Below, in pieces: positions 378 through 64,000 of a stretch of 64,000 nucleotides of DNA. The stretch's first letter is position 1; each line of letters begins with the position of its first letter. Under the pieces are notes generated by a model. It was given only the letters and a program-made list of their open reading frames with translations. It was not told where the DNA came from and did not search any database. The DNA is taken from the NCBI GenBank assembly GCA_965178125.1, contig OZ237759.1:434001-498000 (forward strand), given 5' to 3'. The DNA is from Bilabrum cf. latius. Taxonomy: Eukaryota. The position numbers and the translations under genes were made by a program.

Positions 378-3300
378 TCACCCTACAACCAACCGCGACT
401 TGGCCCGGTTTTCGGGTGAAAATCTGTCCATGCTCTGCATGTGCTTCAGCGCACTTGCCTGGGCCATCCTCTCCGCGTGTCTCTGGGTCGACTGCCGCCG
501 AAGACCGCTCACTTTCTGGGCCTGCCCCGCCATGTGGCCATGGATCCCAGCGGCGGTCCCACTCCCAGGCGACCCCTCAGGCTGCGACTGGCCCGCACCT
601 GCACCCGCACCCTCGCCGCTGCTGCTGCCGCTACTACCTCCGATTCCGATTCCGAGTTGTCTCCCCGCCTCCGCCTGCCTGGCTCGCTCCGCCTCCAGCT
701 GTGCCCTCAGCTCAACGTACTAGGCCCGGAGCGCTGCCGTAGACGCGTCCCCCGCAGCCTCGGGGGACTGGTGCTGCGGAACATCCTAATGCGCGGCGGC
801 GTTCCGGGTCCCGCCGTGCGGAGGATGATACTGCTGCTGGCCTGCCAGATAGCCTGCCGGTGCGTGCGGAACATGCTGGTGCGCGGCGCCGGCCCCCGGT
901 GCAAAGCTCTCCGGTGCCCTTGGTGAGAACACGTAGGTTGCAACCGGTTCGGCCTGCGGCTGGGGCGCGCCCCTAGGCTCTAGTGGGGGCTGGGGTTGGG
1001 GGTGGGGGTGAGATGCATGGAGCAAGTGCTCGTGCTCGCTCTGCTGAGAATGCTCGCCCTACCGTGCCGGGTATTCCGCTGGCGCAGCATGACCCATCCC
1101 TTCGTTGTCTCCTCCCCGGGTCCCTGCACCTCCATGCACTCCCGCCTTGGCACCAGCTCCTCGTCCTTGCCCCTGCTCCTGCCCCTGTCCCTGCCCCTGT
1201 CCCTGCCTGTGTTCATGCTCGTGATCGTGCCGGCCACCCGAGCTCGCTGTCCCCCGGATCTCTGCGGCGGCCGCTCCGGACCGTCTGCGGGAGGCCTCCG
1301 TGCTGGCCAAGTAGGATCCGGAGCCGGAAAACTTGCCCTGGCTCTTGGATCCGGCGCCAGAAGCCAAAGAGCCGGCGGAGGCGCCTTTTGGCACGAGTTC
1401 CGCGCTGGGCGCCTGCAGCAGAGAAGCGAGGTCTGGCGAGGCAGAGCGGCCGGTGTTGGCACTCGTCACACCGTTTCCACTATTCATCCTGCTTACCATG
1501 GGCCCCCCGACGGCGGCATCGACCTGGCTCCTGAGCGCGCCCACCATGCCGAGCAGGTCCGCTGTGCTGTCAGGGGCCGGCGCGCCTGTGGAACGTCCAA
1601 GCTCGCCATCCCCCTGCTCCATCTCCTCCTGCTCCTGCTCGTCCATCTCGTCGTCGGACAGCGTCCTCTCCCCCCCCTGCCGCAGCAGCCCGCTCACCTC
1701 CGCGCTGTACATGGACCAGGCCGTGCCCACCAGGACCTTGCTGTCCCTCCCCGCGTGGCTGTACTGGTGGTGGGCGGAGGACGACGCCGGTTTGGACACC
1801 CCGGCTGCGTGCCTTTGGCCAGGGGTCATGTCGCCTGCGCGCATGGCTGCCGTGGACTGCTTGGGATGATGATGATGATGCGTTGCGAAACCGGTCGGTG
1901 CGCGGCGCCCCGGAACAGCCCTCCCAGCACCGTTGAGAAACTCCACCGACGGAACCAGCCCGCCGGAGCTATTGCGCGGCGCCCCTCCGGAACCGTCCAG
2001 AGATCCCCCGGAGGGCACCAGGGCCACCGGCCCCGACAATTCACTCGTCACACCTACGGGACCGCTCCCACGAGGATGCTGATGCACCACGGAGCCGCTG
2101 CCAGCAAGCGACAGCCCGTCATCATCGTCGTCATACCCCCAGTCGCCTGGACCCCCACCGTGGACCGGCTGGCTGTTCCCCATAGAACTAGCGGAACCAT
2201 GCGTCTGCGCGGCGCCTTGTTGCTGGAACCCGACAAGACGCGCGTCCGTGACCCCAACAGGGGGGGAGGGGGGGCCCCTGAGAGCGTCCCCCGAGGGGGG
2301 TGACCTCACCGCGGCCTCCCTCGCCAGCCTGCTGTCCTGGTGGTGGGACAGCTGGAACTCCTTGACCGCGGTGGGTCGGCCGGTGTAGCCCCGGCCCGTG
2401 GCGTGGGGGACCTGGTTCCGCAATTCGCGCTGCGCACGGCCGTGCTCCTGCCTCTCGAGAAACTTCTCGATGCCGTCCTGCTGCAGCTCCTTGAGGTTCC
2501 GCTCCACACGGCGCCGCGCTTTTTTGGCGCGGCGGGTGGGGTTCTGCTTGAGTGTGTTCAGGTCGGGGCTCCCCTTGAAGTCCGGCTTTCGCAGTGCCCT
2601 TCGGATCTCGGGGTCGAGTCGGCTGGGCGTGGCGTTCGCGGTCTCCTCCAGCCGGGGCTTGAAAGTGCACCCTACAAACTTTGCTTTCGTGACCTCCCGG
2701 GCCTGCGCCTCAAGATGTTTCTCCCTCCGTCGCTGCCACTCGTACAGCCTGCTCACGACGCTTGTTCCCTGGGTCTTGCGCTTGCTCTCGATTGCCTTCT
2801 GCAGTCGCCGATGGGAAGGGCAAAGTGAGTGGGTGTGTTGGGGATAGCAAGGCGAGCAGAGAAGCTGCACGGCCTCTCTCTTTGCGTTTCATTACATTTC
2901 AATCTCTCTCTCTCTCTTTTTCTTTTTTCTATACCTCTCACCTTGGATAGCTTCGGCTTGAAGGTGCACTCCCCCTCCTCCCTCTTCCGCCTCTCCTGCT
3001 CCTCCTGCTGCAGCCGCACCTTCTCGTCCCTCTTCTTCCTCCATACGTCCAACCGACGCAGTAGGGGATCCTCGCCGCCCCCGGAAGCATCCACGCTGCT
3101 GCGGGTGGAGGAGGGGAGCGGGCCGTGGGGGTGCCCCCGCTCCTGCCGCCCGTACAATTGCTGCGGCTGCTGCTGCTGGGAGGAGGAGGACAACGGCAGG
3201 GAGGAAGGACGGCCGCTCCTCCCGCGACCGCTCCTACTATCCCGTGGGCCCGAGCTGCGGGAACTACGGTCAGATGCATGGTCGCCACGCCTTCGCCTGC

Positions 3301-3733
3301 GCTCAGAGCCGTCCTGGCGCTGCTCTTGCTACTACTCAAGTTGCTCGCTCCAATCCCCGTTGGCAGGCACCGAGGAGGGTGGAAGCAATGGAGGGGGTAC
3401 GTCTGAGCGCCGGTCAATTGAACGACTATCTTTAGGGCTGCGCTAGCGAGACGCCTTTCCAGTGCTGCTCCCGCTCGATTGCAGTTGCGCTTGGCGCGGA
3501 GATTGGCTGGAGGTAGGCGACCGAGAGAAGGCTGGCTGAGACGGAGCGAACAGGTCGTCAGTTTCTTCTATCATTGCGTCAACAGCGTCTTTGCTATTGC
3601 TGCTCTGAGCAGGCCGAGTTCGCTCCTTTACCGAATCGTTTGGCGTCGAATCGCTAACCATACCGGGTGGCAGGGACAAATCTGCTGAGCTGCCAGGGTC
3701 AGCAAACGCTGCTAGATCAAACTCAAATTCCAT
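378..3733 (-). CDS. Uncharacterised low-complexity/coiled-coil protein with two CTFKP-type motifs (2 exons; TAG read as Gln)
   Basis: ATG at 3733. ORF-track fragments share a frame on each side of a phase-0 GT..AG intron (2941-2799) and are separated only by TAGs (3443, 3332, 3329, 1059, 786, 720). Ends at TGA 378-380. Contains ECTFKPKL and GCTFKPRL motifs and EQLE**QEQRQ (TAG TAG in a Gln-rich run). Confidence 0.7.
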
Positions 3734-4657: not shown

Positions 4658-6181
4658 TCACTCCGGCTTGGGCTTGATCCGTGGAGGCCCCAGCTTGTAA
4701 TCGTCCAGGTCCTGCTTCCTCGGGTTGAAGTTCTCCAGCTCCACGATGTACTTGCCCTCCACACCGGCTGCCCTCAGTTCCCTGATCTTCCTGGCCTTGA
4801 CCTGCTCCAGCCGGTCGTAGTGGTCCGTACGGTGCTCCACCTCGTGCGCCCCCTCCGCCTGCGTCCGCTCGAACTCTTTGCGCGCCTTGGCCCGCAGCTC
4901 CTCCGCCTGCTTCTGGACCACCTTGACGTGTTCCCTGTCGCGATCGTGACGAGTGCGCCTCGCCTCCTTCTCCTCGTCCATCCACTGGCGCCGCGCGCGC
5001 ATGTTCCGCTCGAACTCCTCCTTGTCTGCCTGGATCATCATGGCGGTCCTCAGCTCCTTCTCGCGCACCTGCTCGTCTCTCACACGCTTGAGTTCCGCAG
5101 CGGCCTCTGCGCGGCGCCGCGCGTTCTCCTCGTCCTGCAGCCGCTGCTGCCTCTGCCCCTCCTCGAAGACCCTCTGGGCCCTCAGCTCGTCCACCTCGCC
5201 CCTCCTGTCCATGAACTTCTGCACGTTGCCCCGCATCTTGAAGGCCTCTTGCTCCCTCTTCTCCCGCGCGATCTCGAACTCGATCTGGGCCTGCACTGCC
5301 TCCTCGTCCATCTGCTTCTGGATCGCCTCGATCCGCCGCTCCTCCGCCACCTCGGCTTCCTTCCTGGCCTTCCTCGCCAGGATGCTCTCCTCGTTGGCCC
5401 GGAGCACCTCCTGACGGAAGACCTTTTTCCTGGCCTCCTGTCTCCTCGCCCTCTCCCTGTCCTCCTCTTCCATCCTCTTGATCACCGCCAGAGTCTCCTT
5501 GGCCTCTTTCTTCAACCTCTCCCCCCTCTGCCTCCTGACCTCCTGGGCGGCCTCCAGCTGCTCCAGGATGTCCTCCTTGGCCTTCTCCCGGATGGCCCGC
5601 TGCCTCGCGTCCCTGTCTTCCCACGTCCTCATCTGCTCCATCCTCTCAATCTCCACCTCCAGGTCCCTGATCTTCTCCTCCTCCTTCTCTCTCTCCACTC
5701 TCAGCTTCTTCTCCTTGAGCTGCCGCTCTCGCACGCTCGCGGTCTTGGCGTACTTGACCAGGCTCGTCATCTTCTTCACCTCGTCCATCGCCTCTTGGTC
5801 CATGAATCGATTCCGGATCCTCTCGCGTTCGGCATCTTCCGCCTCCTCCTGCTCCAGCTCCGACAGAGGCAGAGAGGCCAGCCGTCGCTTCTCTAGCTCC
5901 TTCATGCGATCCTTGCGGGCCGCCTGCGCCGCCCACTGCCTGTCCCTCTCCGCCTCCCGCTCCCTTGCCTCTCGCCGGATGTCTGCCTTGGTTCGAATTA
6001 TGGATTCTTTCTGCATGCGGTGCAGGTCGCTGCCGCGGAGCACGTTGGGTTTCTAGCGGTGCGCCGCTGCCGCAGCTCCTCGGCCCCGGCCCCTGCCTCG
6101 GCCTCGGGCCTGGCTGCCGCGCGTGCGGCTCGCGTCCCCTGCTCGTCCCGCCGCTCCTCCTACAGTTTCTTCTCCAGCCAT
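4658..6181 (-). CDS. CFAP45: Cilia- and flagella-associated protein 45 (TPH-domain microtubule inner protein)
   Basis: Long E/R/K coiled coil with MDEVKKMTSLVKYAKTASVRERQLKEKK and C-terminal KIRELRAAGVEGKYIVELE, typical of CFAP45/CCDC19. ATG 6181 is reached through one TAG (6053). Stop TGA. About 507 aa. Confidence 0.88.
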
Positions 6182-6795
6182 TCGTAAGGCCCTGGCTTCC
6201 GTGCCTCGGCGCTATGTCTTCGGCTTCTGCGACACGAATGCGTGGGGGTCGGAGACGAGAGGGTGCTGTTTGCACGAAGACCAGATGGCGGCGTCTGGTT
6301 TGGGTGGAGCTCAAGAACAAACGAAAAATAGACGCGCTGCTTTAGGCTGGTGGTATTCTGCATACGCATCGCCATCAATTCGGGCTGCCAACCGATACGG
6401 GGAAGGGCCTCACCTTGGAACCGAACAAGGATTCATCAACGTACGAAGTATCCGACACCTTCCTATATCGGAACCCTCTCGATCCGTGGGAACGTCCAGA
6501 GGCTACAGAAGAGGCCATGATTGGCACCGTAGTGTCTGGTCAAGTCTCCGAACGGATACCGCGGAACCATCCGGCGCGGCGCCGCGCGCGACCTCCCCAA
6601 CGGCTTGTACGCAGTAATCGCTCTACCACGGCTGATATCGTCCAGATACAAGACCCCAGTTTCAACCTTTGGTTTGTACTGAAGACTTAAAATCCCTACA
6701 TTCCGCAAATTACTGCAGAGTTGGGCAGATTCTTCAGGATCTCGACAACTTGTATTTCTACCGGATACCCTCGCGACGTTGACAGGCGTTGAAGA
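6182..6795. promoter_or_regulatory. Probable bidirectional promoter between CFAP45 and CFAP52
   Basis: A 614-bp lower-GC gap between divergent start codons. No specific site identified. Confidence 0.5.
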
Positions 6796-11832: not shown

Positions 11833-12050
11833 AGTATCGCTGCAAGAAGCCACACATGAACTTACTGATAGTTTTGCTGCCCATGCTTCCATTAAATACC
11901 GCACCTCAATGTCTGCATCCACAGCTTTTTGGCGGATGTTGTTGCACTCGTCACCAATTCTGCGAGATTGCAGCTAGACGCGGGATACCCTGGCAGAAGG
12001 AGCTTTTCAAGCAATACAGTGGAGTTAGACACTGTACTATCTAGCTACGT

Positions 12051-13037: not shown

Positions 13038-16000
13038 TCACTTTCTCCTGCGCCTGGCAGCTCTTGGAACGAAGGACAGCCCCTTCTTCGCAGCAGCTCC
13101 ACCGCCGGAACCCGTCCCCGTTCCTGTAGCAGCCCCGCTCGATTCGCTTGCCCCAGCCTTTGCCTCCGCCCCCACCTTCATCTTATGTTCCTCACTGCTC
13201 CCCACGCCAAAGGCAGCCGTGAGACCAGTCCCGGAGCCCTCTCTGCCTGTGCCTCGGAACTTGTCCACCACGGCCGACTTGCAGGGCACGGCTTTCAGGG
13301 GCCTGTCGCGGTGCACCACCGTCCCGCTCTTGGCCAGATCCATGGCCGCACGGACCGCGGCGCTCGGCGGATTTACCCCTTGTTCCGGTTTGGCGTCTCC
13401 GCCGGTGGTTGCAACCGCGTCGGGCCTCTCCTAGAAGAGCACCATGGCGGTGCCCTTGGACCTGCCCCGGGGGTCGCGGAACAGAACCACCTCCTCCACG
13501 GCCCCGCACCTGCTGAAGAGGCCCCTCAGCTCTGCGGGAGTGGTGTGGCGATTGAGGCCGGGTACGAAGACCGCGTGCGGGTGGGGCCTGTCCCCGTCCT
13601 CCGTCTTGCCACCTTGTTCCCTGGATCCTTGTTGCCTGGCATCCCCTGCGGCCCTTGCATCATGACCCGTCGCGCCTCCACCGCCGACTGAGGACTTGGA
13701 TTCGGAGCCGGATCTCGGCCGATAGGCCCGGATGTTGATGGCGCGGCCGGCGAGCACCCTCCCGTCCGCCGCGAGGCATTTTTTGGCCTCGGTTTCCGAT
13801 CGGAGCACCGCGAACCCGAAGCCCGCGTGCCCCTTGCCCCCGTCCCTCCGCTTGCTCATCTGCAGGTTCACCACCGAACCCTCGCCAGCGAACTCTTCGA
13901 GCATGCCGGTGATGACGTGGAAGGGCAGGGTGTTCTTGACGTTGCCCAGGAACAGCTTCCTCTCGGGCGAGGCTGGCCCGTGGGAGCTCTTTCCGGTGTG
14001 ACGAGTGGATTCGGATGCAGCACCACCGTGCGATGCATCCTGTTCCCCACCGTCGGTCCGGCGGCGCTTGGATGGCGGCACCACGCCCTCGCCCCTGGCA
14101 TCGCCTTCTTCCTCCCCGTTTCCATCGCCCTCCATGGCTGCCTGTGCCCTCACCCGGCCTGCCTTATCACCCTCTTTCTCTTTGGCCCCTCCCATCATGG
14201 CAGCGAATGCAGCCATGGAAAACCCACCCTTCGCTCCTGCTCCTCCTGTCCCGTCTCCGGATGCTGCGCCGGTGCTGGCCAGTTGCTCGGCTGCCTTGCT
14301 TGCTGCTGCCGCCGCGGCTGGCTTGCCCCCCTTCTTGGCCTCAGTCCCTTCGTCGACATCTATCGGTCGCGAGCGCTTGCTGCCGAGTCGAGCTGGCTCG
14401 GTCGGTCCAGTCGTCGCCCCTGCTGCCCCCGCTCTTGCCCCGGCCTCGTTGGATGCAGCGGGCTGCTGGCTGCCGGGGTGCCTGGGCGGCTGGCCCTTCT
14501 GCTTGCGAGCTGGCTTGGGCTATTTGGGCTGCTTTGGCTTGGCTCGCTTCCCGCCGGGCACCTGCTTCATCTTGGTTGCAACCTTCGCCTCGGCCTCTGC
14601 TTGTTCCCTGGCACTCCCGAAGCACGACTCAAGCCGCCCCAGGGCCAAGCCGCTCACCTCCACCTCCCCCGCGCTCCTGGCGTAGTGCAGCGCCTGACGA
14701 AAGCTCCGACGGGCGGTTGCAACCATCTCCGCGGTTGCAACCGACTGGGATGCGAGCGACAGTGCCAGATCCCCGCACCGCCGCCAGCACTCGTCACGCC
14801 TGGAGACAGGCACGAAGGACGGGTCGGCGAAACCGGGATCCTTCGCTGGTGGCTGTGCCGCCTCCCCGACCGCACTGCCGTCCTTCGTGGCATGTTTTCC
14901 GGATTCGAATCGCAGCGCAGCCTCCATGGAATTGATCGCCTCAGTAGGGCGGATCATCCCAATCGTCACACCGAGATCGGCCGCGAGATACGCGAGTTCT
15001 GCGTGCAGCTGGGAGGCACAGCCCTGGGCGTCCTCACTCGTCACACCAGACTGCGCGTCAGCCCACTTGCGCGACCACTCTACCACGGCGTGGAACACGG
15101 CCTTGGCCTGCAGCAGCGCCACTTTGTCCACCCTAGCGACAGCCTCCACGGCCCCGGCACCTCCCCCCTCCCTTTCCTCCTTGCCTCTCCCCCTCTTGCC
15201 CTTCCTCCTCCCACTGCCCTCTGCCTCGTACACGTCCCCCAGGGAACACAGGCCCACCAGCCGAGCGGCACCTCGCAGTGCTGACGCACCCACCCCCAGG
15301 GCGCCATCGGCTCCCAGCGCGGGCAGGTGCCTGGTTCTCCACAGGACGCAAAGCACCCTACCGGCATAGGTCGACACCCTCGCAGCGCTCAGTGAAGGGA
15401 CCTCTGTGGCAGAGGGGGGGCCTCGGGCAGGGGCAGGAGCTCGTGGCAGGCCGGCTGGTGGGCGGCTGGGGCCGAAGGTGCTGCCCTCCACCTCACTCGT
15501 CACATCGTCGCCGTCGTCCTGCATCGGCGTGGACCGATCCGTTCCCCACGGCCCCCAAGGGGAAATCCCCTCAGCCTAGCCGGGAGCAAGTGCGGCCAGG
15601 GCTAGGGGTAGCAGGCCATCCCAGCCCTCCATTTCACTCATCACACCTCCATCGGACCGGTGTGACTGGATGCACTGCCTTGCAGCGTCGAGGGCCTCCG
15701 CGTCCCCCGCAGGATCGCATCCTCTGGGTGCACCGCACTGCAGCAACCTCGGCACCCCCTGCGCCGGCGCCCCCGCAGGCCCGAGGAGGTCCTTGTGCGT
15801 GAGCCCAGAGGCGGCGGAGTCGATCTGCTCAACGGCTAGTTTCAGCAGGGCCGCGCTGGTGGGGACGTTGCGGGCCGCGCGGCGGCTCACGCCCAGCAGC
15901 GAGAGTTCTTGCTTGCGACCAGCAAGACACTCGACGTAGGCATGCCACAGGCGAGCAGATGCGTAGCAGTCGGTCGCAAATGCCCTCTCGAAGGCGAGCA

Positions 16001-17216
16001 TTCCACGGGACAGCCCTCCACTCGTCATCTCGTGCCGGCACAGGGTCTCCCAAGCAGCCTCCAGCCGCGCCACGGCGGCCTGCGCACTCGTCATACCCGA
16101 CTGACCCTCACCAGCTCCACCGCTGCTGCTCGAAGAGCAAACTTGTTCCCTGGCCTGCTTGACCTCTGCCTCCATCGGCTCCGAATCTTTCTGCAGCCGC
16201 AGCGTCCTCGCCCTGCCCTTGCTCGCCTTTTTCGCCTGTGGGTCGGCCGACTCTGCCACGGCCCGGGCGAGATCCTGGCTGCTGGATTTCGATTCCGGGT
16301 CGATGCTTGCCAGCTGAGCGAGCATGGCGAGGGGGTCGGTCTGTTCCCCGACCGACGGAGCGCTGCCTGAGTGCGCTGCCTCGCCAGCACCGGCGCCTCC
16401 AGCACTGGGGCCAGAGCCAGTCGCAGCTTGAGCTTGAGTGCCTGCAGCAGCTCCACCGACCGCATCGGCCTCTCTTAGGGCATTGCTCCACGCCGCAGGA
16501 AACTGTTCCCTGTCCCTAGGTTGCGACCAGTCCACGGCCACCCACCGGCCGCAGAGGGCGAGCACGGCGGATCTGGCGCCGCTGGCTGCACCCCTGCCGC
16601 CCGACTGCGCCGAGCTGGCCGCCCGTTCCATGCACGATTCTAGGGCTGCTTGCCACGCTGGGTTGCCCAGGACGGGGTGCAGCCCGCTGGCATTCGCGTG
16701 CAACGAGCGTTCGAGAATATGCGCAGCTGCTCGCTGCAGCCGAGCGTCCTCCGCGTCCTCGTCCTCGTCTGAGTCTTCGCCCTCGTCGTCGCTACCGTCA
16801 GAGCTGGATCGCAAAGAAGGGATATTTGGCGGTTCGCCAGCACTTGTCTGCAAGCGTAAACAAGGCAAGAATGGAAGCCCGTCGATCTCGGCCATTTTTG
16901 AGTAGCTCAGCCAAATGTCGGATGCCAGCGGGCAGTCGCCGAGAGCCCGCTCGAACAATTCCGTGTAATTTATATTTAATTGTTTCATGGCTTCGTCCGC
17001 TCCATCTTCGGAGACTTCGGCCAAGAACTACCGCCAATCCGAAGCTGGCAGTGGGATCCCTCGCGACAATTTCAGAAAAGCCGTCAGCTTCTGCGAGATT
17101 GGAGCGCCCTTGGTCTTCAACTGCTTGATAAGCTCCAAGTTTGCAGAGTAATCTAAGGCGGTAGCGCCTGCAATCGCTGATGCAGCGGTGTCCTATGACT
17201 AGCCTGATGCCGCCAT
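13038..17216 (-). CDS. SART3: SART3/Prp24-like U4/U6 recycling factor (HAT repeats + 2 RRMs)
   Basis: N-terminal DYSANLELIKQL..LFERALGDCPLASDIWLSY, HAT-like AFERAFATDCYASARLWHAYVE and SRRAARNVP, two RRMs (KLFLGNV..GFGFAVL; AVFVPGL..KGTAMVLF), C-terminal LSFVPRA. One frame with 6 TAGs, stop TGA. About 1392 aa. Confidence 0.82.
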
Positions 17217-19310: not shown

Positions 19311-22300
19311 TCAAGTCGCCCCTCCAAGTCCCGCTCCCAGCAGGTCTGGGATCCCCACGGGCCTCCGCACCGCGTTGCTGAACCCCTCCAAGTACGTGAA
19401 CAGCACGTCCGTCTCTGTGCTGGCCCACCACTCGTCACTACCCGCCGGGGCAGAAAACCCCCCACCAGATCCGTGGCCCAGCTAGCCCCTGCCGGTTGCA
19501 ACCGGAGCCAGCTGCCCCGCCGCGTGCAGCCGAGCCACGGCCTGCTCCTGCACCGTCCGCCGCCGCTTGCTCGGCTTCCCGTGCTCGCCCACCGGAGCAG
19601 GTGCTGCGCTGCGGCTGCCCCCAGCGAGGAAATCCGCCATCGAAGTTGCGCGGCGCCCGCCTGCGGAACCGCTCTGGGACAGCTGTGCAGCAGCAGCGGT
19701 TGTCTCGCTGCTGCTGCTGCTGCTGCTGCTCGTAGCGCTTGCCGGCGGAATCGACGGGCTCTCTGCCAACTGACTCTGCGCGGCGCCACTACCCTGGTTC
19801 CGCTGGCGCCGCGCAGTCTGCATGAGATGCTTGACATGCGCGGGCAGCTCCACTCTCTTCCTCTTCCTGCCCGCAGCACCGGGTGCAAAGCCGCCGTACC
19901 CTCCGCCCCTGCCCGACCCACGGCCCCCAGCCCCCTCCCCACCCTCGTCCCCCTCGCCGCCCCCGAGGCCCAGCGCCTCTGCAGCCAGCTGCTCGTCATC
20001 CTCACCGTCGGGCCCGTCACCCCCGGCAGACGGTAGCTCGCCTTCCGCCAGCCGCCTCGCCTCCGCCGCCCGCGCGCGAACCCTGACGAACTCCCGACGA
20101 ACCTGCTGCGCCACCACCTCCCGCACCACCCCCAGCGTGGGCTTTCTCCCGGACCCGGAATCGAAAGCGCACTGCCCCCTGTAGTCCAGCAGCGCCAGCA
20201 TGTCGGGCCTCAGCTCGAACCGCCAGTCGTCGCCCCCGTCCCGCGCCGATGTCCTGGCTCGCCTGCCGCTCCCGCCACCCGTCCCACCCAGCATCCCAGT
20301 TCCTCCGCCACCCTCTTCCTCCAGGGGTCTCGGTTCGAACCCCTTGGCTTCCCCCGACCCCCTCTCGAAGTTCATGCCGGTGGCCAGCAGCACGTCCCTG
20401 AGCCGCTCCATGTCCCTTGTCTCTCTCGAGTTGAACAGGCCCAGAGACACGGGCCTGATCTACGGATTCACGATCGTGGTCACTGAGGGAACAACGTCGA
20501 GCACCGCTGTGCGCAGCTGCAGCAAGCCCAGCCCCGCCTGGCAGCTCAGGTCGCGAGGCCCCAGGCCATGCCGCCTCCTGGCCATCTCCTTCATGTGCTC
20601 CGCCGCCGCAACGGCAACTGCGGCTTTGCCCCTCCCTAGCATGAAGCTTCTGGCCAGGTCCTCTTTGGCCACCCTGTCATATCGGACCCTGCGCTCCTCC
20701 TTTGGCCACCTGCACCTCCTCGCCGCGGATCCGTCGGGCTTGCACGCGGCGTGCACTCCCATGGCCGATGTGCCACCAACGTGCATCAGCTGGTAGGCCT
20801 GTCTGGTCTTGGCGCGGTGCAGACCAACATCGCCATACGACAGCCAGTCCGCCGCTTTGGCCGTCTGCTCCATGGTCGGGTCCTAGTACCCCATGACTGG
20901 GTAGTTGCAGCGCACGCCGTCCAGAAGCAGAGAGGAATCCACGGATCGGCTGGACAAAAGATCGAAGAGAGCCCTGGCACGGTGGTCAAAGTGGAGATGG
21001 CCACCCGCGGGCAGACCGCCGTGGTGCTTCCTGGGCGTCCTGAATTCCGGTTTCCCTTGTCCCCTGCCGCCCCCAAGGGCTCGGCTCGCCAGCCCCCCCC
21101 CACCCAGCCCAGACCCCCCCCCGCCCGAACCGGTCCCTCGGAACACCGCGTTCCACACATCGAAAGCGCTCTTTGTGTCGTCCCTTGCCCCTACTGGCAG
21201 CTGCTCCACGATGTCTGCGGTCAGCCGGAACGTCCCGCTCTTGGCCCTGCCCGTCTGCCTGGCTCGTTTCCCGATCGTCTGCAGGGTGTTGATGCACCCG
21301 CGGATGTCGTTGCCACACCGGTTCATCACCGCCTGCAGACCGTCGTGAGTGGCGAAAATCCCCTCCGCGCTGCATATCTTCTTCAGTAGGCCCAGCAATC
21401 GAGTGCTGCTGGGCCTCTCGCACTCAACCACCTGTGCGTGTTCCCTCAGCCGCCGAAGCACCGGGGCGTAGAGGTCGTTGCAGGTGCATATGACGGGCCG
21501 TGTGAGCTGCTGGCGGGTGCTTCCCTTGCCCTTCTTCTTCTTTTTGGCGCCGCCGGCGTCGTCGCCACCCGCAGCCGATGCGCCTTTCTTGCCCTTGCCC
21601 TTCCCCTTCCCCTTCCGCTGCTCCTCATCACCATCGTCTCCATCGCCCTGCCCCTTGCGTTTCGGCATGCCTGGGGCGGGTGTCTTCTCTATCATCTTCA
21701 CGAGGAAATCCACGGCAGACGCATCCAGACCGTCGATCTCGTCTAGCAGCACCATCCTAGGCCTGTCTCCCTTGGCTGAGATGGACCGGGAGTGCATGGC
21801 TGCTTCTAGGCGGGGCCGGAGCGTGGTCACGGTGCGGTCGTCCGAGGCATTCAGCTCGGTGAGCTCGTACCCACAGTGCTTGGCCACAATGTGGGCGAGC
21901 ACGGTCTTGCCCACGCCAGCGGGACCCGCCAGCAGCACGATCCGAGCGTCCCTTCGCCAGCCCCTGGGCCACACCTGCGAATAGTAATCCGATCCAGACC
22001 CTGACCCGGGCTTGCCCCCCGCGCCACCCGCAGTTCCGGTTTTCCTTTCCTGCGCGGCGCCCTGCCCTGGGGCCCCGAAGAACGACTGCGACCTCTTTTC
22101 GCTCTGCGAAGCACTTGCTCCGGCCGGGTCGCTCGCTCTCTTGCGCCTGTCCCTGCCGAATACCTGTCTGTCCCACAGGTGCACCCATTGCAGCATCTGA
22201 GGTAAAAAAGGAATTGATGGATTCACAGGCAATGTGCAGTGGCAGAGTAGCAACAACAGGATGAGAAACCCACAGTGCAGTGCACACATACAATATTGGG

Positions 22301-24571: not shown

Positions 24572-24827
24572 AGCTTCAAAATCACATTACTCAGGTATCG
24601 TGTATCTATACTCATCGCCCATTTGACGTTGTCTTCCGCGGTGTTCCTGGAAATGTCCGCGCTCGTCACATAATTGTAGCTATCCGGGATATTTGTGGAG
24701 AGATGGTAAATGGTCACATTAAGCGTGGAGATTCTATAACCTGTTGCCAAAGCCTAGGCTTATCGATTGTTAGATTATACCACACCAAATAGTGCTGCTG
24801 AGGTGTGGCAACAAGCTGTGGTTGGCC

Positions 24828-40130: not shown

Positions 40131-40191
<61 letters not shown>

Positions 40192-47400: not shown

Positions 47401-49107
47401 TCATTCCATCCGCAAGCTCCCGAACTGGTCCCTGTACATCTCCAGCATCGCCACCGCCTCCTCCACCTCGATTTCGAGCGTGGCCACCCTCCGCTTCAGC
47501 CGGCTGTTCTCCTCCCGTAGCGCGCCCACATCCCCTCCATCATCTCCACCGCTTCCCCTTCCCCTTCCCCTCCCCCGACCGCTTCCGCTGGCCCCAGCAC
47601 CCCTGTCCCCGTCTTGGCCCGAAGACAGGCCCGGAACCTCGGAATGGTCAAACTCCCTCGAACGCCCCCTCACCTACCGACCACCACTCCCCGATCCCGC
47701 GCCGCCGCTTTGTCCACCCCTTGCCTCCCGACCCCGGCGTGTCTCCGCTGCAGCGGGTGGATCTCCTCCGCCCCCCATCGCCCTCCGCTTGGCCTGCACC
47801 CTGGCCAGCTCCCGCGCCTCCCTCTCCTTCCGCATGTCCCATTCCGAATCCTCTCTCTTCTTCCTCGCCTCCCTCTCCTTCTTCTCTCTCATCTGCTCGG
47901 CCAGCTCCCGCGCGTACGCTGACCTCGCCCCCCCGCCATCATCACCGCCAGCACCCCTGCCCGAGCCCAGCCGCCTGGCAGGCGACGACACGGGGCTCAC
48001 GGGCCCGCCCCGTCTCCCGCTACTCGTCACACGACCGGGCGACCGTATCTCGGACGCCCCCGGCGTGGGCATGCCCAGCGCCCCCGCAACCCCCGCCCCG
48101 CTCTGCATCCTGGACCTATTCTAGCGAATGGATCGAGCGCCTCCCCCCCCGCCGCCGCCGTTGTTCCCTAGACCCCCCTCGTCCCCTTGCCCGGCCCCAC
48201 CAGCGCCCCTCTGCAGCTCGTCGGCCTCTCTGGCCGCCCTCTCCGCCTCCCGCAGGAACCGCTCGTCCTCCGCCCTCCTGCTCGCTTTCTCGCTCGCGTC
48301 CCGCTCCCGCTTCGCCCGGCGCTGCTCGTCCAGCTCCATGGCGTACCGCCGCGCATTCGCCTGCTTCGGGCTCAGGGCTGCGGAACCTCCGGATGGCGCG
48401 GCGCCGCCCCCACCGGGGGATCTGGACGGGAAATGGCGGGACCGTTCATCCCTGAGGACTGACGGGGACAGAGGTTCCGCTGCGCGGCGCCGCGCGTCCG
48501 CGCCGCCGTCGTCGTCGTCCAGGTCCATACCCCTCCGCCGGCTGCTTCCGCCGGGGGGAGGGCCCCTCGCCGGGCCGCGTTTGCCCACCCCGGCGGCCGC
48601 CCGCATTCTCGCCAGGTCAGACATGCGGACCGCGGCTGGCCCGGAACCCTCATCACTCGTCACACCACGGCTCCCCCGCCTGCGCTCGTCGTCCGCCCTG
48701 ATGGCCATCTCTGCCTCCGGGGAGGCGTCCTCCCTCAGTGCGCGGCGAAGTTCCGCTGCCCTCCTCTCCAAGGCCTCAAGCCTCCCCGGGCTGCCGGGGG
48801 GGGGGAGGCCCCTCTCCAGCTCAGCGATGGCGGCGTCTGCTTGTTCCTCGGGGCGGAGGCCGCGGGGCTGATGCTGGCGGTACCGAGCTGCGGAACCGTC
48901 GGCGCGGCGCCCGTGCCGTGGAGGCGAGCCCGGGGTAGGAGGGGCTGCGAGCACCTGCGGGCGAGATGAGCCGGGGCCCACGCCGGTGCCGCCGTCGCGT
49001 CGCGCCGGTGCCATCCTTGCGATTTCGTCGTCGCTCAGCCCAAGCTACTTCTGTCTTCTTCTTAGAAATTCAGCTTCCTTGCTTGCAAACTCGCCCCCGC
49101 CGTCCAT
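47401..49107 (-). CDS. Gly/Arg-rich coiled-coil protein with repeated YAxELxEQ motifs (CSPP1/CCDC66-like, tentative)
   Basis: Four ORF fragments in one frame joined by TAG at 49045, 48121 and 47674. Motifs YAMELDEQRRAKRER and YARELAEQMREKKER. Stop TGA. Confidence 0.68.
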
Positions 49108-49572
49108 TCGATCTCTGCGGCCAGCCGCAGCGCCGGAGCCGCGGGACCTTCCTCCCCTAGCAGATTCTCTCGATGGTTCATTTCGCCTGCGTTCATGAGT
49201 TTTGCACAGTGTATTTAAAAAATATCGCTGTAAATTGAAACAGGATGCGCTAGAGCTGATAGCATCCTGCGAACATTCGAATTTCAGAACGCTTCTCACT
49301 TTGCTTTTGCGGACCCTTTGCGCGATCCACGGCTAGCCCTAGGTGCACGCGAGAATTGCATATCGGTCGGCCTGCCCAACTAGTCAATGCACTCACGTGC
49401 AACGGAACACGAGGTAAGTACAATTCGCCTTCCGTTGGGATCCTTGATTGGGGTATGACGAGTGTTTGGTTACAACCATGCGACCAATCGCACGCGGAAC
49501 CGCGACCGACTTGGTGCACTAGAAAAACAAAAAAGTCGAGTGGAGAGCGACCTCAGCGATTTCCTTCCACAA

Positions 49573-60419: not shown

Positions 60420-63400
60420 TCACCTCCGCCTGGTCTTGAGCGCGAAGCTCGCCATCCCGAAGGGCCCCCAGCCCACCGCGTTCCTGGCCCGAACCCGGAA
60501 CACGTACTCGGTCGAAGGAGATAGACCCTCCACCGCGCACTCGCACTCGCCGCAGTCCTCCACCACCCGCCTCCAGGTGTGACGAGTGCGCAGCAGCCGC
60601 AGCCGGTCCTCGGCGCTCATCCTGGGGTCGAGTGGGCCACCCGATTCGCCGCCCTCCATGGCCATGCGGAACCGTTGCGCGGCGACGTACGAAGCGAAAC
60701 CTTCCTCTTCCGCAGCGGCAGCTTCCATCGACCCCATCGCCCTAGGCACGACCTCCATCCCCTCCACAAACTCGGAATAGAAACGAAGCAACCGCGCAGT
60801 GGTTTCCCCTCCTGATGGTGGTGATGACGACGACGAGGCCCTGGCACCCATCCCACTCGTCACATCGGGTGCGGGCAGCACCCTAGCGCTGCCCGCCTCC
60901 GCCATCTCCACACAGTAGCCCAGCACGGCCGCCCCGTTGTTCCTCCCGGGTCGCCAGCGGATCACCATGGTGGTGTCAAGGCGGGACGCCTGCACCGGGG
61001 GCAGGGGCGGGGGCAGGGGCGGCGCGGCGGGGCCGCGCACGGGAAGACTCGGAGCCGAAAACACAGAGGAGCCGGACTCCGCGACTGCTCTAACCCGGAA
61101 CTGCCAGGCGGTCCCCGGGGTCACGTCGGCCGCACGCCAGAAACACGAGTGGTGCGCGTGCAGGCCCAGGGCCCGCGCCTCGGTTGCAACCGGGTCACCA
61201 TCCAGGCACCCCTGCAGCACCGACACGACCCCATCTGCTCCGACCCTGCCCGATCCCATGGCGGCCTCCACCCCTGCAACCCCGCTGGCACCAGACAGAC
61301 CGCCGGACTGTCTCACTACCGAGACACCGCTTCCATTGCTATGCTTCTGCTGGCCCAAGTTTCGGATGGACCCACCTCTCTTCGTTGTTCCCTGCACTGC
61401 GAGGCTCTCCGTCGGTTGCAACCGCACCCCCTGCGGCAGCCCCGCCCGCCGAGTCAAAGCCCCGCTCGCAGACACGTCGTGTTCCCTGACGAACCCACCC
61501 GTAACACTCGTTACACCGGATGCACGGCCATCAGCAGGCCTGGATTCAGCAGATGAACCGCTTCCGCTGCCCACGATGTTGGCACCTGCTCCAAGCGCCG
61601 CTGCGTTCGTCCTTAGGCGGCTGCTGTCACCGCTGCTGACCGCCGCAGATGCACCGCCCGACGGGGCCAACCCTCGCTTCTAAACAACCGACTCACGGTC
61701 CTCCGCCTCCTGGCTCGTCATGTTCCCCGGCTCGTCCTCCTCCTCGTCACTGCCAATGGGAGAGTGGTCACGGGTGCCAGGTTCCGCTCGGGCGCCGCGC
61801 AATCCATCATGAGCCGCGGTGGCGCCATCGGTGCCGACGTGGGACGACTTGTCCACGCCCCGGTCGTAGCGGTCAGCGTGTGCGTTGGCGATCCCGGGAT
61901 CGAGACCCGGAGCCACACCCGCCCCGATACCCCTCCCGCCTGCCCCCCCCTTCAGCGCTGCTTCCCTCCTCTGCCTTGACATCATCTCCTTGCCCCGCGC
62001 TTTCTCGATCTCCCGGGCCAGCGCGTCCGAGACCGCCATTGGGTCCCCACCCCCTGGGGCCGCCCGCAGACTCCGGAGCCCGGGAGACACCTCCGGCGCC
62101 GCGCGGCAGTCCTCAGCGGAACATCTTGCGACGAGCCTCCACGGCATGGCGCACCTCCAGCCCCGCCTGAGCACCTCCTCCGTGTCCTCCTCCACGTCTA
62201 GGCCCCCGTGCCATACCAAGGGGGCTGAAGTTGTCCGGGCCTGGCTGGTGGAACCGCTGCCGTGCAGTGCTCCAAATGTGGCACCTTCGTGCGATGCACC
62301 CATGGTGTTTTGTTCCCCGGGGGTAGGGGAGCCCTCACCCAGCAGTGCGGCTCGCACGGATTCGGCTGTGGGCAAAGAGCCGTCAGCCCCTCCGGCGGCC
62401 CAGCGAAGCGGAGGCTGCGGCATCGCCAGCTTGACCATTTGCTCCTCCCTCTCGTCGTCGGAGGGGTTCCCCTGGTCCCCGGGTCCCACCACCCTTCGCG
62501 CGCACACCTCGTAGCAGCGAACCTTCGCTCCCCTGGACCGCGGCGCGCTCCAGCGCAGCAGCAGAGAGAAGCCCGTCCCCGCCACCACAAGGGGCTGCCC
62601 GGGGACACCTGGCTCCAGGGAGGGCAGACGCACTGCATTGCCGCGCACGGACGGCGCGGACCACTCGTCACACCGATTGCCCCTGGCAGATACCCGGAAC
62701 TCGTACCTGCGCCCCTGCCGGAGCCCCCTCACGACCGCTTGGCACAGCCTGCCCGCGATGCCCGTGGTCTCTGGTACGAGCGGGCCGGTCACGCCGGCTG
62801 TGCCCCTCCCGCTGGCCTGTCTCCTCATTAGAGCGTCCTGGATCTTGGGACCACCAATGCTGTGTGACGAGTGAGTGGCCGGGGGCAGGGGCACGAGGCC
62901 ACGTTCCAGTTCCCACGCCCTCTGCCGGTCCTTGGCAAGCAGACCCTGCCTCGCCCCTGCTGCCTCTGCCCCTGCTCCGGCATGCAGGGAGACTTGAAGG
63001 GCCGCTCCATCCGCGACGTCCTCACTCGTCACACCAGACACCCCTGTGCCGGTCCCTGTGCCACTCTATGCTGCTGCCGTGGGTAGCCCCTGGCCCTGCT
63101 CCGATGGAGCCTCTTGCGACCAGCGCAGCTGCTTGGCCTCGCGCTCGCTCAAAACCACCCATGGATTGCGGCCCCGCCCGCTTGCGAGCACTGCGGAATG
63201 CGACTGACCGTCCGAGGCGCCCGATGTGACACTGCCCGCAAGCTGCTCATCTCTCTCGACTCCTTCTCCTCCTCCTTCTTCATTTTCTTGTCCTCCCTGC
63301 AGCAGGGCAGCCTGGTCCCCTGGCTCCCTCAGGATGGCCTCCTCACCGGTTACAACCAATTCCAGCGGAACCACGGCGGCGCCGGGCACGTCCTTCCACC

Positions 63401-64000
63401 TCCCGCGCGACACGTACTCTCCTAATCCTAATCCCGGTGCAGCAGCAGCAGCAGATCTAGATGGTGACCCGGGGCGATTGCCCACCACCGCCCCGCGACC
63501 ATGTCCACCTGCGCTAGCATCGTTGACGTCGATCTCAAGGTCAGACGAACCTTCGCTCTCCGCGGCAGGTTCCTCGGGCCTCTTGGTCGCGACCGTGCTC
63601 GCCCAGCCGCACCGCACGAGCAAGTGCCTGGCTTTCTGCGCGGCCTGCAGCACCCGCTCCAGCGCGGCGCCCTCGAGTGCGGAACCTCCTCCCCCACCCC
63701 CACTGCCACCCCCTACTGTCCCGAGTGCGGCGGTCGCTCGTACCAGCTCGGCGGCTTGCTTCCTCGCCTGCTCCTCGAGCAATGCCCGGCCAGCACCCCC
63801 CTTTCCGATGGCCTCCGACCCCCCGTCACCGGCCTCACTCGTCACATGCAGAAGCTCGGAGGTAGTGGCGCTGCCGTGCGACGCTCCGGAATACCGAGGC
63901 TGTTTTCTGCGACCAGTTCCACCCAGCCCTTGGTTCCGCTCTGCGCGGCGCCTGCGGAACCTCCACCCGCCCCACGCGTCGGACTCGCGACCAAAACCCC
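60420..64000 (-). CDS. Fibronectin type III repeat protein (5' partial)
   Basis: GLRQGRRYEFRVSARG, LLLRWSAPRSRGAKVRCYEV, WQFRVRAVAESG, GLSPSTEYVFRVRARNAVGWGPF. TAGs at 63066 and 61680, stop TGA. The frame is open to the window edge. Confidence 0.85.

What the first reader, a model, noticed from the sequence alone, without database searches (positions are those of the whole stretch)
1460..63846. Strongly over-represented 11-mer CACTCGTCACA embedded in coding sequence, independent of frame and strand
Seen: exact copies at 1460, 2042, 15035, 15494, 48654, 60854, 62662, 63023 and 63836, and reverse complements at 13997, 60578 and 62863. One-mismatch copies at 4945, 11945, 14788, 15635, 16085, 19429, 24660, 48021, 49455 and 61505. 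A given 11-mer is expected about 0.03 times on both strands of 64 kb under a uniform model. It is translated as VTS, CDE, TRH or HSSH in unrelated genes, mostly in disordered regions, so the constraint looks DNA-level rather than protein-level. No exact copy was seen in the 24.7-38.3 kb orphan block. Inference: a genome-wide protein-binding, recombination or chromatin signal, loosely analogous to bacterial HIP1/DUS/Chi sites, or a mutational attractor.
Basis: partly seen in the sequence, partly recalled or inferred. Interest (0 to 1): 0.75.

Follow-up and report, generated by a model that had tools for sequence, protein, structure and literature searches.

The report
DNA words written into protist genes
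A GC-rich single-celled eukaryote writes a 13-letter DNA word, together with at least four other short words, into the coding sequence of some of its genes by codon choice, most likely as docking sites for DNA-binding proteins, though nothing has yet been shown to bind them.

Summary
CACTCGTCACA occurs 12 times exactly, against 0.02 expected from dinucleotide shuffles.

- The organism reads TAG as glutamine. Read that way, all 12 copies lie in four long ORFs.
- The word is really 13 nt, CACTCGTCACA[C/T]C.
- Frame and strand are not random: 8 of 12 copies encode x-V-T-S-x in one orientation. That is also the cheapest way to fit the word into codons.
- It is one of at least five over-represented words (GGTTGCAACC, GGCGCCGCGC, CAGGGAACA, GCGGAACC). 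These co-cluster in the same genes, recur in three gene-upstream gaps, and are absent from the 24.7-38.3 kb orphan block.

In a related metagenome contig (75-79% nucleotide identity), GGCGCCGCGC and GCGGAAC sites inside coding DNA are kept while spacers diverge. For the 11-mer itself I have only protein-level conservation.

Best reading (0.45): it is one word of a vocabulary of protein-binding DNA sites. Genome-wide enrichment could not be tested. Earlier agents of this scan noted similar words in bacteria, phages and giant viruses, but not this word.

The parts
1460..1470 (+). Exact copy in ORF G1 (378-2888, minus strand). Sense strand reads TGTGACGAGTG and encodes G-V-T-S-A.
   Evidence: It lies inside RNA contig 290-2798 of run X5, which shows no differences.
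2042..2052 (+). Exact copy in G1; encodes G-V-T-S-E.
   Evidence: same RNA contig as the 1460 copy.
13997..14007 (-). Exact copy in G7 (13038-17219, minus strand; HAT repeats plus RRM). Sense strand reads CACTCGTCACA and encodes S-T-R-H-T.
   Evidence: In the close relative the peptide is S-A-R-H-T, so 4 of 5 residues are kept.
15035..15045 (+). Exact copy in G7; encodes G-V-T-S-E. It shares 23 identical bases with the copy at 63023.
   Evidence: The peptide is kept in the relative.
15494..15504 (+). Exact copy in G7; encodes D-V-T-S-E.
   Evidence: The peptide is kept in two related proteins while the next residue changes.
48654..48664 (+). Exact copy in G16 (47401-49383, minus strand); encodes G-V-T-S-D.
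60578..60588 (-). Exact copy in G19 (60420-63998, minus strand; FN3 domains). Sense strand reads CACTCGTCACA and encodes R-T-R-H-T.
   Evidence: The peptide is kept in a 96% identical fragment.
60854..60864 (+). Exact copy in G19; encodes D-V-T-S-G.
   Evidence: It is not kept in the 61% identical relative P0036 (read by eye from the rows).
62662..62672 (+). Exact copy in G19; encodes C-D-E-W.
   Evidence: The peptide is kept in P0028.
62863..62873 (-). Exact copy in G19; encodes H-S-S-H.
   Evidence: The peptide is kept in P0028 next to an indel.
63023..63033 (+). Exact copy in G19; encodes G-V-T-S-E.
   Evidence: The peptide is kept in P0028 next to a 13-residue indel.
63836..63846 (+). Exact copy in G19; encodes H-V-T-S-E.
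14788..16095 (+). Four one-mismatch copies in G7, at 14788, 14960, 15635 and 16085. Three are in the VTS frame. The 16085 copy (G-M-T-S-A) reads G-V-T-S-A in the relative.
4929..4996 (-). A 68-nt cluster in G3. On the minus strand it reads GCGCGGCGCC, 31 nt, CACTCGTCACG (one mismatch), 7 nt, CAGGGAACA.
   Evidence: In contig L001 the first word is kept exactly, the last is kept at 8 of 9 bases, and the 11-mer-like copy is not kept (4 of 11 bases).
6561..6591 (.). GCGGAACC, 5 nt, then the palindrome GCGCGGCGCCGCGC, in the roughly 100-nt gap between the divergent transcripts of G3 and G4.
   Evidence: RNA contigs end at 6521 and start at 6626-6632; the relative keeps GCGGAACC, CGCCGCGC and CCCAACGGCT.
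11945..11955 (+). One-mismatch copy CACTCGTCACC in non-coding DNA upstream of G5.
   Evidence: The relative has TGCACTCATCACAC at the matching place in an otherwise poorly alignable stretch. The chance of any copy at up to 1 mismatch in 700 nt is about 0.015.
49454..49501 (.). Gap between divergent G16 and G17. It reads TATGACGAGTG (11-mer, one mismatch), 3 nt, GGTTACAACC (one mismatch to GGTTGCAACC), 16 nt, GCGGAACC.
19429..19814 (.). Word cluster in the last 500 nt of the CTF18-like ORF G9, just upstream of the next gene G8. It holds the 11-mer (one mismatch), CGGTTGCAACCG, three copies of GGCGCCGCGC and two of GCGGAACC.
   Evidence: The RNA contig of G8 reaches 19107.
24671..38389 (.). Block free of all five words. 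It holds three orphan ORFs (G11-G13) with GC of 0.59, no GC3 bias and many in-frame TAG codons.

Best explanation
CACTCGTCACA[C/T]C is one word of a small vocabulary of double-stranded DNA recognition sites for sequence-specific DNA-binding proteins of this organism. The other words found are (C)GGTTGCAACC(G), GGCGCCGCGC (also seen as the 14-nt palindrome GCGCGGCGCCGCGC), CCAGGGAACA(A) and GCGGAACC.

The words stand in gene-upstream gaps. At much higher copy number they also stand inside the coding sequence of a subset of genes. There they are spelled through codon choice, in whichever frame and orientation costs the protein least.

**Shown:**
- a nucleotide-level constraint;
- use of both orientations;
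- co-clustering of the words;
- their presence in promoter-like gaps;
- conservation of two companion words in coding DNA across species.

**Inferred:**
- that proteins read the words;
- that the 11-mer is kept by selection, as its companions are;
- what the gene-body copies do. My guess is gene-class-specific regulatory or chromatin marking of resident genes.
For: 1. **Constraint on the DNA.** 12 copies are seen against 0.20 expected when the proteins are kept and synonymous codons are permuted, and 0.40 under a dicodon-preserving shuffle. 9 of 15 VTS tripeptides are spelled GTGACGAGT.
2. **Length.** The word extends to 13 nt in three different frames: position +11 is C in 9 and T in 3 copies, and +12 is C in 10 of 12.
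3. **Both orientations.** Three exact copies have the opposite orientation to transcription, against about 0.005 expected. Frame use follows the cheapest codon path: the VTS frame is expected in 36% of copies and seen in 8 of 12. GGTTGCAACC is in its cheapest frame (VAT) in 7 of 8 copies.
4. **Companion words survive the same nulls**. Observed counts, with expectations under the codon shuffle, synonymous permutation and dicodon shuffle:
   - GGTTGCAACC: 8 against 0.03 / 0.09 / 0.36
   - GGCGCCGCGC: 21 against 0.8 / 1.1 / 1.4
   - CAGGGAACA: 16 against 0.4 / 0.8 / 2.0
   - GCGGAACC: 17 against 2.9 / 3.6 / 5.3
5. **Co-clustering.** Across 2-kb bins the 11-mer correlates with GGTTGCAACC (Spearman 0.61, p = 2e-4). 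GGCGCCGCGC correlates with GCGGAACC (0.76, p = 5e-7), and those two form a composite with a 1-9 nt spacer.
6. **Words in gene-upstream gaps.** They stand at 6561-6591 and 49454-49501 between divergent genes, and at 11945 upstream of G5. Non-coding DNA holds 5 one-mismatch copies against 0.31 expected.
7. **Cross-species conservation, companion words.** In the syntenic relative L001, GGCGCCGCGC sites at 4987, 5109-5122 and 10461 are kept exactly while flanks and the spacer diverge. Empirical chances are 0.075, 0.022 and 0.030. In G3 these sites fall in the longest and third-longest identity runs; in G5 the word falls in one of three 11-nt runs tied for second.
8. **Cross-species conservation, the 11-mer.** In protein alignments to close relatives, residues under exact copies are identical in 32 of 33 cases, against 33 of 42 in the three residues on either side (Fisher p = 0.02). 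Taking the exact copies of all five words, 79 of 82 residues are identical against a background of 0.881 (p = 0.009).
9. **Gene-specific distribution.** Four of 16 ORFs hold all exact copies (p = 0.0013). Word-poor G17 has orthologues at 89-96% identity, so it is not simply a fast-evolving newcomer.
Against: - All 12 exact copies are in coding DNA and none is in the 14.6 kb outside the ORFs (p = 0.03). The gene-upstream copies are all one-mismatch variants, which is the reverse of what a classical promoter element shows.
- The only DNA-level comparison of a coding 11-mer-like copy (4945) shows no conservation: 4 of 11 bases in L001.
- The 60854 copy is not kept in a 61% identical relative.
- About as many exact as one-mismatch copies, with no excess at two mismatches, is more stringent than most eukaryotic transcription-factor sites.
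- Two copies, 15035 and 63023, share 23 identical bases. That hints at copying rather than independent selection.
- No binding protein is known.
- Genome-wide behaviour could not be tested.
- Why a gene body would need 6-7 copies is unexplained.
Confidence: 0.45

Rival explanations
1. Molecular drive or mutational attractor. The word is spread and homogenised by a sequence-biased repair or copying process, without any function for the individual copy. Candidates are short-patch repair that restores the word, ectopic short-patch conversion, or repair templated by an abundant small nucleic acid.
For: - Copies stay very close to the consensus: 12 exact and 15 one-mismatch, with no excess at two mismatches.
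- Copies 15035 and 63023 share 23 bases, and 14788 and 60578 share 7 further bases although they are oppositely oriented to transcription.
- At 63023 the window reads S-G-V-T-S-E-D, like the G7 copy, while the relative reads Y-G-V-T-S-E-A.
- Sites turn over between close relatives: GMTSA against GVTSA, and STRHT against SARHT.
- The orphan block lacks the word.
Against: - The word is strongly gene-specific (p = 0.0013), although word-poor G17 and G14 are long, Pfam-less ORFs of similar G+C, and G17 is conserved in a relative.
- There is no exact copy in 14.6 kb of non-coding DNA, where nothing hinders it.
- It co-clusters with unrelated words, including palindromes.
- Companion words are kept at orthologous sites while the spacers diverge.
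Confidence: 0.2
2. RNA-level signal. The mRNA sequence GGUGUGACGAGUG is bound by an RNA-binding protein or a small RNA.
For: - 16 of 20 coding copies at up to 1 mismatch have the same orientation to transcription, against 56% expected from codon usage (p = 0.024).
- CAGGGAACA shows a similar bias, 13 of 16 by my own count from the rows.
- Two exact copies lie in mature, unspliced RNA contigs.
- The 23-nt unit shared by two copies is about the size of a small RNA.
Against: - Three exact copies are in the reverse orientation, against about 0.005 expected.
- Two companion words are palindromes. GCGGAACC is used 8 to 8 in the two orientations (my count).
- The GCGGAACC/GGCGCCGCGC composite sits in the gap between two divergent transcripts.
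- The orientation bias is largely what base composition predicts.
Confidence: 0.12
3. Peptide-level short linear motif. [G/D]-V-T-S-[E/D] would be, for example, a phosphorylation or docking site, with codons identical by recent common descent.
For: - 8 of 12 copies encode x-V-T-S-x, mostly followed by an acidic residue.
- The peptides are kept in relatives.
Against: - Keeping the peptides and permuting synonymous codons gives 0.20 copies against 12.
- The rare codon AGT is fixed.
- Four exact copies encode unrelated peptides: CDE, TRH (twice) and HSS.
- The C-C extension is kept in three frames.
- A VTS in G19 that is not spelled by the word is not kept in the relative.
Confidence: 0.05
4. Core of a decayed dispersed repeat or miniature mobile element.
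For: There are many copies, and one pair shares 23 bases.
Against: - Mean identity of the 24 flanking bases is 0.30 across all pairs of copies, which is at chance level.
- No terminal inverted repeats or target duplications were seen.
- The copies are in frame inside continuous ORFs and in RNA contigs.
Confidence: 0.03

Closest known systems
Transcription-factor sites embedded in exons ('duons') and homotypic or heterotypic site clusters of eukaryotic cis-regulatory modules (from my own knowledge; no paper read here)
   Same: - The words are double-stranded DNA sequences used in both orientations.
- Several different words cluster together.
- They occur near gene starts as well as in exons.
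- Codon choice bends to the DNA word.
- Two companion words are conserved across species.
   Different: - The word is about 13 nt and almost invariant.
- It is roughly 1000-fold enriched in coding DNA.
- The best copies are in gene bodies, not in promoters, with 6-7 copies per gene.
- No factor is known.
Bacterial genome words: DUS of Neisseria, USS of Pasteurellaceae, HIP1 of cyanobacteria, Chi of E. coli (from my own knowledge; the abstract of PMC2397512 appeared in a search listing)
   Same: - It is a 10-13 nt word, hundreds-fold over-represented and nearly exact.
- It is placed in coding DNA in the permissive frames.
- It is missing from a compositionally odd block.
   Different: - This is a eukaryotic nuclear genome with spliceosomal introns.
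- The distribution is strongly gene-specific rather than even.
- The word is part of a multi-word set.
- It is not palindromic, unlike HIP1.
- No uptake or RecBCD machinery applies.
PAC element (GCGATGAGCT-like) of fungal ribosome-biogenesis promoters (recalled from memory only, not checked in any call)
   Same: The reverse strand of the word, GTGACGAGTG, and its CpG-decayed variant GTGATGAGTG (window 15635; L001 7722) resemble the GATGAG core.
   Different: - PAC sits in promoters.
- It is shorter and more degenerate.
- No link to ribosome-biogenesis genes is shown here.
- This is a lead, not a test.
Over-represented coding-embedded words noted earlier in this scan in giant viruses, phages and bacteria
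   Same: The same kind of observation was made: a word written into genes by codon choice, with an unknown reader.
   Different: The words and the genomes are different. None of those notes concerns a cellular eukaryote or this word.

Membership tests
Uptake-type genome words (DUS/USS) | A 10-12 nt word that is hundreds-fold over-represented on both strands | tested here: met
   12 copies against 0.02 and 0.01-0.40 under codon-aware nulls. This holds for this 64-kb window only.
Uptake-type genome words (DUS/USS) | Roughly even spread over the genome | tested here: not met
   4 of 16 ORFs hold all 12 copies (p = 0.0013). None lies in 14.6 kb of non-coding DNA.
Uptake-type genome words (DUS/USS) | Natural competence with a receptor that reads the word, in a bacterium | tested here: not met
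   The window is eukaryotic nuclear DNA. It has GT..AG introns supported by RNA contigs and THOC1, CTF18 and FN3 genes.
HIP1-like palindromic words | The word is its own reverse complement | tested here: not met
   CACTCGTCACA is not a palindrome. Two companion words are: GGTTGCAACC and GCGCGGCGCCGCGC.
Chi-like or strand-polar words | Orientation tied to the direction of replication | not testable with these tools
   All word-rich ORFs lie on the minus strand, so replication and transcription direction cannot be separated in 64 kb.
Protein-binding cis-regulatory DNA words | Constraint on the nucleotides beyond the encoded peptide | tested here: met
   The synonymous-permutation null gives 0.20 against 12. 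VTS is spelled GTGACGAGT in 9 of 15 cases.
Protein-binding cis-regulatory DNA words | Presence in promoter regions | tested here: inconclusive
   Only one-mismatch copies stand in gene-upstream gaps (11945, 24660, 49454). Companion words stand exactly in the G3/G4 gap.
Protein-binding cis-regulatory DNA words | Clustering with other words | tested here: met
   Spearman correlations are 0.43-0.61 between the 11-mer and the other four words across 2-kb bins. Compact clusters stand at 4929-4996 and 49454-49501.
Protein-binding cis-regulatory DNA words | Conservation at orthologous positions while flanks diverge | tested here: inconclusive
   - Met for GGCGCCGCGC and GCGGAAC at the DNA level.
- For the 11-mer there is only protein-level support: 32 of 33 residues against 33 of 42 in the flanks, p = 0.02.
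- One coding one-mismatch copy is not kept.
Protein-binding cis-regulatory DNA words | A protein binds the word | not testable with these tools
   This needs pull-down, DAP-seq or footprinting.
Dispersed repeat or MITE | Similar flanks, terminal repeats and target duplications | tested here: not met
   Flank identity is 0.30 over 24 nt across all pairs. No such structure was seen.
Small-RNA target sites | One fixed orientation in transcripts | tested here: not met
   4 of 20 coding copies, 3 of them exact, are reversed.

The most novel reading that the evidence does not exclude
This eukaryote keeps a lexicon of near-invariant 8-14 nt DNA words written through codon choice into the bodies of its long-resident genes. 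The words are absent from orphan or newly arrived genes. The lexicon would work as a 'self' or licensing mark read by a set of DNA-binding proteins, and would be kept exact by short-patch copying between copies. That would be a nuclear counterpart of bacterial genome words such as DUS and HIP1, and of the licensing sequences of nematode germline genes.
Probability: 0.12. Interest if true: 0.85.

Novelty: new variant of a known kind. Interest (0 to 1): 0.62.

Why it matters
If proteins read these words, a large share of this organism's regulatory or chromatin information sits inside coding sequence. It is strong enough there to override codon preference: rare codons such as AGT, GTT, GCA, GAA and CAA are fixed inside the words.

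That would make this a clean natural system for studying how DNA-level and protein-level codes share one sequence. It would also give annotators a practical signature for telling resident genes from orphan blocks in this lineage.

If instead a repair or copying bias writes the words, it would be a rare eukaryotic example of a drive that shapes coding sequence at the level of whole words.

Tried and rejected
**Searches that found nothing.**
- The whole genome is not held, so no genome-wide k-mer test was possible.
- Rfam and the tRNA scan found nothing.
- The literature search for the word and its reverse complement gave 91 papers. The 20 listed looked like primer or siRNA contexts by their titles and abstracts, and none was opened.
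- A keyword search for over-represented words in eukaryotic coding DNA gave nothing relevant among the 15 listed.
- This scan has no notes for this genome or for look-alike stretches. A word search returned only other genomes.

**RNA evidence.**
- No RNA holder is on record as such. Runs X5-X7 nevertheless carry spliced contigs.
- Only window 1-20000 could be laid, so there is no RNA evidence for the copies at 48-64 kb.
- Parts without listed contigs are not interpreted.

**Ideas rejected.**
- Splice-site mimic: the four introns begin GTGAG, and the word does not match.
- Fixed spacing between the 11-mer and other words: none was seen.
- Terminal repeats around the orphan block: none, only tandem arrays and a G11/G12 duplication.
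- CpG depletion as a clue to methylation: observed/expected is 0.86 for the window and 0.77-1.01 across the ORFs, which is uninformative.

**Limits.**
- The single metagenome scan gave one 9-kb syntenic contig that holds no orthologue of any exact copy.
- DNA of the closer relatives seen as proteins could not be fetched.


Full report
**Observation.** Dinucleotide shuffles expect 0.02. At up to one mismatch there are 27 matches against 1.34 expected. The flanks of the copies are unrelated: mean identity over 24 flanking bases is 0.30 across all pairs. So this is a free-standing word, not the core of a repeat element. The excess is confined to exact and one-mismatch copies. Counts at 0/1/2/3 mismatches are 12/15/13/123, against 0/0.85/12.1/126 in 40 third-order Markov simulations.

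**What the window is.** It is eukaryotic nuclear DNA of 62% G+C.
- It carries a THO-complex subunit 1 gene, a two-propeller WD40 gene, a CTF18-like clamp-loader gene, a trichohyalin-plectin-homology gene, an FN3 protein and a HAT-plus-RRM protein.
- Contigs of three runs from two further studies (X5-X7) carry GT..AG joints at 4166/4278, 6226/6414, 11522/11619 and 18250/18489. They are therefore RNA-derived, and they agree with the window letter for letter where listed.
- No whole genome is held.

**A point that changes the gene map: TAG is a sense codon.**
- Long coding frames were interrupted only by TAG (7 of 7 in-frame stops checked).
- With TAG read through, 16 ORFs of up to 2627 codons cover 49.4 of 64 kb. 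All 14 that reach a stop end in TGA.
- The WD40 propeller and the conserved C-terminus of CTF18 continue beyond in-frame TAGs.
- In orthologous codon comparisons with a related contig, TAG faces CAG in 10 cases, CAA in 1 and another codon in 2, of 13. TAG is therefore read as glutamine.
- A stop-to-glutamine change of UAR codons is on record for an aphelid (passage read in PMC5304391). I did not test whether this organism is one.

**Codon-aware tests.** The 16 ORFs were shuffled 1000 times under each of three schemes. Expected copies of the 11-mer are 0.01 (codon order shuffled), 0.20 (proteins kept, synonymous codons permuted within each gene) and 0.40 (dicodon-preserving Euler shuffle). None of the 3000 replicates reaches 12. 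Of 15 V-T-S tripeptides in these ORFs, 9 are spelled GTGACGAGT, which includes the rare serine codon AGT.

**Frame and strand.** All 12 exact copies are in coding DNA, in four ORFs on the minus strand: G1 (2), G7 (3), G16 (1) and G19 (6).
- Eight encode x-V-T-S-x with TGTGACGAGTG on the sense strand. One encodes C-D-E, two T-R-H and one H-S-S.
- 'Independent of frame and strand' is therefore too strong.
- Under an independent-codon model, the V-T-S frame is the cheapest of the five open ways to fit the word. It is expected in 36% of copies and seen in 8 of 12 (p = 0.03). The sixth way contains TGA, which is a stop.
- The same holds for the palindrome GGTTGCAACC: 7 of 8 copies are in its cheapest frame, V-A-T.
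- Orientation to transcription is 16 to 4 for coding copies at up to one mismatch, against 56% expected (p = 0.024).
- The word extends by two bases in three different frames: position +11 is C in 9 and T in 3 copies, and +12 is C in 10 of 12. The unit is 13 nt.

**The word is not alone.** After masking tandem repeats, the most over-represented dispersed words are the 11-mer, (C)GGTTGCAACC(G), GGCGCCGCGC(A), CCAGGGAACA(A) and GCGGAACC.
- All survive the three codon-aware nulls.
- They co-cluster. Across 2-kb bins the 11-mer correlates with each of the other four (Spearman 0.43-0.61). GGCGCCGCGC and GCGGAACC correlate at 0.76 and form a composite with a 1-9 nt spacer.
- Further candidates, GCGAACCTTC (5 copies) and CCGTGCTCGC (7 copies), were seen but not tested.
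- Distribution over genes is very uneven. G7 and G19 each carry seven copies of the 11-mer at up to one mismatch. G11-G13 (11.7 kb) carry none of the five words. G4, G14, G15, G17 and G18 carry few.
- Heterogeneity is significant: p = 0.0013 for exact copies and p = 0.0002 at up to one mismatch.
- Word-poor G17 has orthologues at 89-96% identity in a relative, so it is not merely a fast-evolving newcomer.

**Words near gene starts.**
- The roughly 100-nt gap between the divergent transcripts of G3 and G4 holds GCGGAACC, 5 nt, then GCGCGGCGCCGCGC (6561-6591).
- The gap between divergent G16 and G17 holds, within 48 nt, one-mismatch forms of the 11-mer and of GGTTGCAACC plus an exact GCGGAACC.
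- A one-mismatch 11-mer stands upstream of G5 at 11945.
- Non-coding DNA has 5 one-mismatch copies against 0.31 expected, but no exact copy (p = 0.03 given the coding density).
- A dense cluster at 19429-19814, in the last 500 nt of the CTF18-like ORF, lies just upstream of the next gene.

**Related sequences.** One metagenome scan returned L001, a contig of 8955 nt. It is syntenic with window 4.2-13.2 kb and 75-79% identical in coding DNA.
- There, GGCGCCGCGC at 4987, the palindrome at 5109-5122 and GGCGCCGCGC at 10461 are kept exactly. The neighbouring GCGGAAC is kept while the spacer between them diverges.
- In G3 these sites fall in the longest and third-longest identity runs. In G5 the word falls in one of three 11-nt runs tied for second.
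- The empirical chances of full conservation are 0.075, 0.022 and 0.030.
- The G3/G4 gap keeps GCGGAACC, CGCCGCGC and CCCAACGGCT.
- For the 11-mer, L001 gives two data points. The coding one-mismatch copy at 4945 is not kept. The non-coding copy at 11945 has a counterpart, TGCACTCATCACAC, in an otherwise poorly alignable stretch.

Proteins of closer relatives were found for G19 (P0028 at 82% identity, P0032 at 96%) and for G7 (P0178-P0182, 77-92%).
- Residues under exact copies are identical in 32 of 33 cases, against 33 of 42 in the three residues on either side (Fisher p = 0.02).
- Taking the exact copies of all five words, 79 of 82 residues are identical against a background of 0.881 (p = 0.009).
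- There is turnover. Window G-M-T-S-A is G-V-T-S-A in the relative, S-T-R-H-T is S-A-R-H-T, and the 60854 copy is not kept in a 61% identical protein.
- I could not obtain DNA for these relatives.

**Interpretation.** The findings fit a vocabulary of sites for sequence-specific DNA-binding proteins best. They are:
- use on both strands;
- palindromic companions;
- clustering of different words;
- occurrence between divergent genes;
- DNA-level conservation of two companion words inside coding sequence;
- a strong restriction to some genes.

I put this at 0.45. The unusual parts are unexplained: near-invariance over 13 nt, the best copies standing in gene bodies, and six to seven copies per gene. 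A guess is that the words mark a class of resident, mostly nuclear-function genes. Binding is inferred, not shown.

**Rivals.**
- A repair or copying drive (0.20) is favoured by the exactness of the copies. It is also favoured by two copies that share 23 bases (15035 and 63023), where the window's G19 flanks match the G7 copy while the relative's differ. It is disfavoured by the gene specificity, the lack of exact non-coding copies and the conserved companions.
- An RNA-level signal (0.12) would explain the orientation bias. It does not explain three exact reversed copies, the palindromes, or the 8-to-8 orientation of GCGGAACC.
- A peptide motif (0.05) and a decayed repeat (0.03) are contradicted.

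**Comparison with known systems.** The word behaves like bacterial genome words (DUS, USS, HIP1) in its exactness and in how it is fitted into permissive frames. It fails their defining features of even spread and uptake machinery, and it sits in a eukaryote. It works most like exon-embedded transcription-factor sites, but with far higher information content and copy number. The resemblance of its reverse strand to the fungal PAC element is recalled from memory only.

**Verdict.** 'Frame and strand independent' and the single-word, genome-wide framing need correction. Novelty: a new variant of a known kind. Interest: 0.62.

Noticed in passing
window, all long ORFs (e.g. 14520, 20460, 20883, 44834, 45293, 61680, 63066, 8470): TAG is a sense codon here.
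- There are 93 in-frame TAGs in 16 ORFs, and every ORF that reaches a stop ends in TGA.
- Conserved domains continue past TAG.
- TAG faces CAG or CAA in 11 of 13 orthologous codons of contig L001, so it is read as glutamine.
- The status of TAA is unresolved.
   Followed up: partly
window 881-63954: Four further over-represented dispersed words: GGTTGCAACC, GGCGCCGCGC (also as the 14-nt palindrome at 5109, 6574 and 48482), CAGGGAACA and GCGGAACC. The last forms a composite with GGCGCCGCGC at a 1-9 nt spacing.
   Followed up: yes
window 7459-7493 (G4, WD40 gene): A 35-nt stretch of coding DNA is identical in L001 against a 79% background. It contains GCGAACCTTC, a word with 5 copies in the window.
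   Followed up: no
window 24723-38261: Three orphan ORFs (1267, 954 and 1663 codons).
- They have no Pfam match, no GC3 bias and 10-18 in-frame TAGs each.
- They contain in-frame tandem arrays: 33 nt x 15.8 at 26622-27144 and 27 nt x 10.3 at 35866-36142.
- G11 and G12 share 90-93% identical segments (27542-28379 against 32038-32881).
   Followed up: partly
window 38506-38844: A 68-nt unit repeated 5 times at 98% identity, at the 3' end of the G14 ORF region.
   Followed up: no
window 29662, 32909, 38266, 38421: The palindrome TAGATCTA stands at 4 sites, counted as 8 on both strands against 0.44 expected. Most are in AT-richer DNA just after ORF ends, so it may be a 3'-end signal.
   Followed up: no
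window 15029-15051 and 63017-63039: Two copies of the 11-mer, in different genes, share 23 identical bases (CGTCCT + word + CCAGAC) and the peptide S-G-V-T-S-E-D.
   Followed up: partly
window 12730, 16558, 19579, 21895, 22534, 57037, 63593: CCGTGCTCGC has 7 copies against 0.47 expected, mostly in the same word-rich genes. It was not tested further.
   Followed up: no
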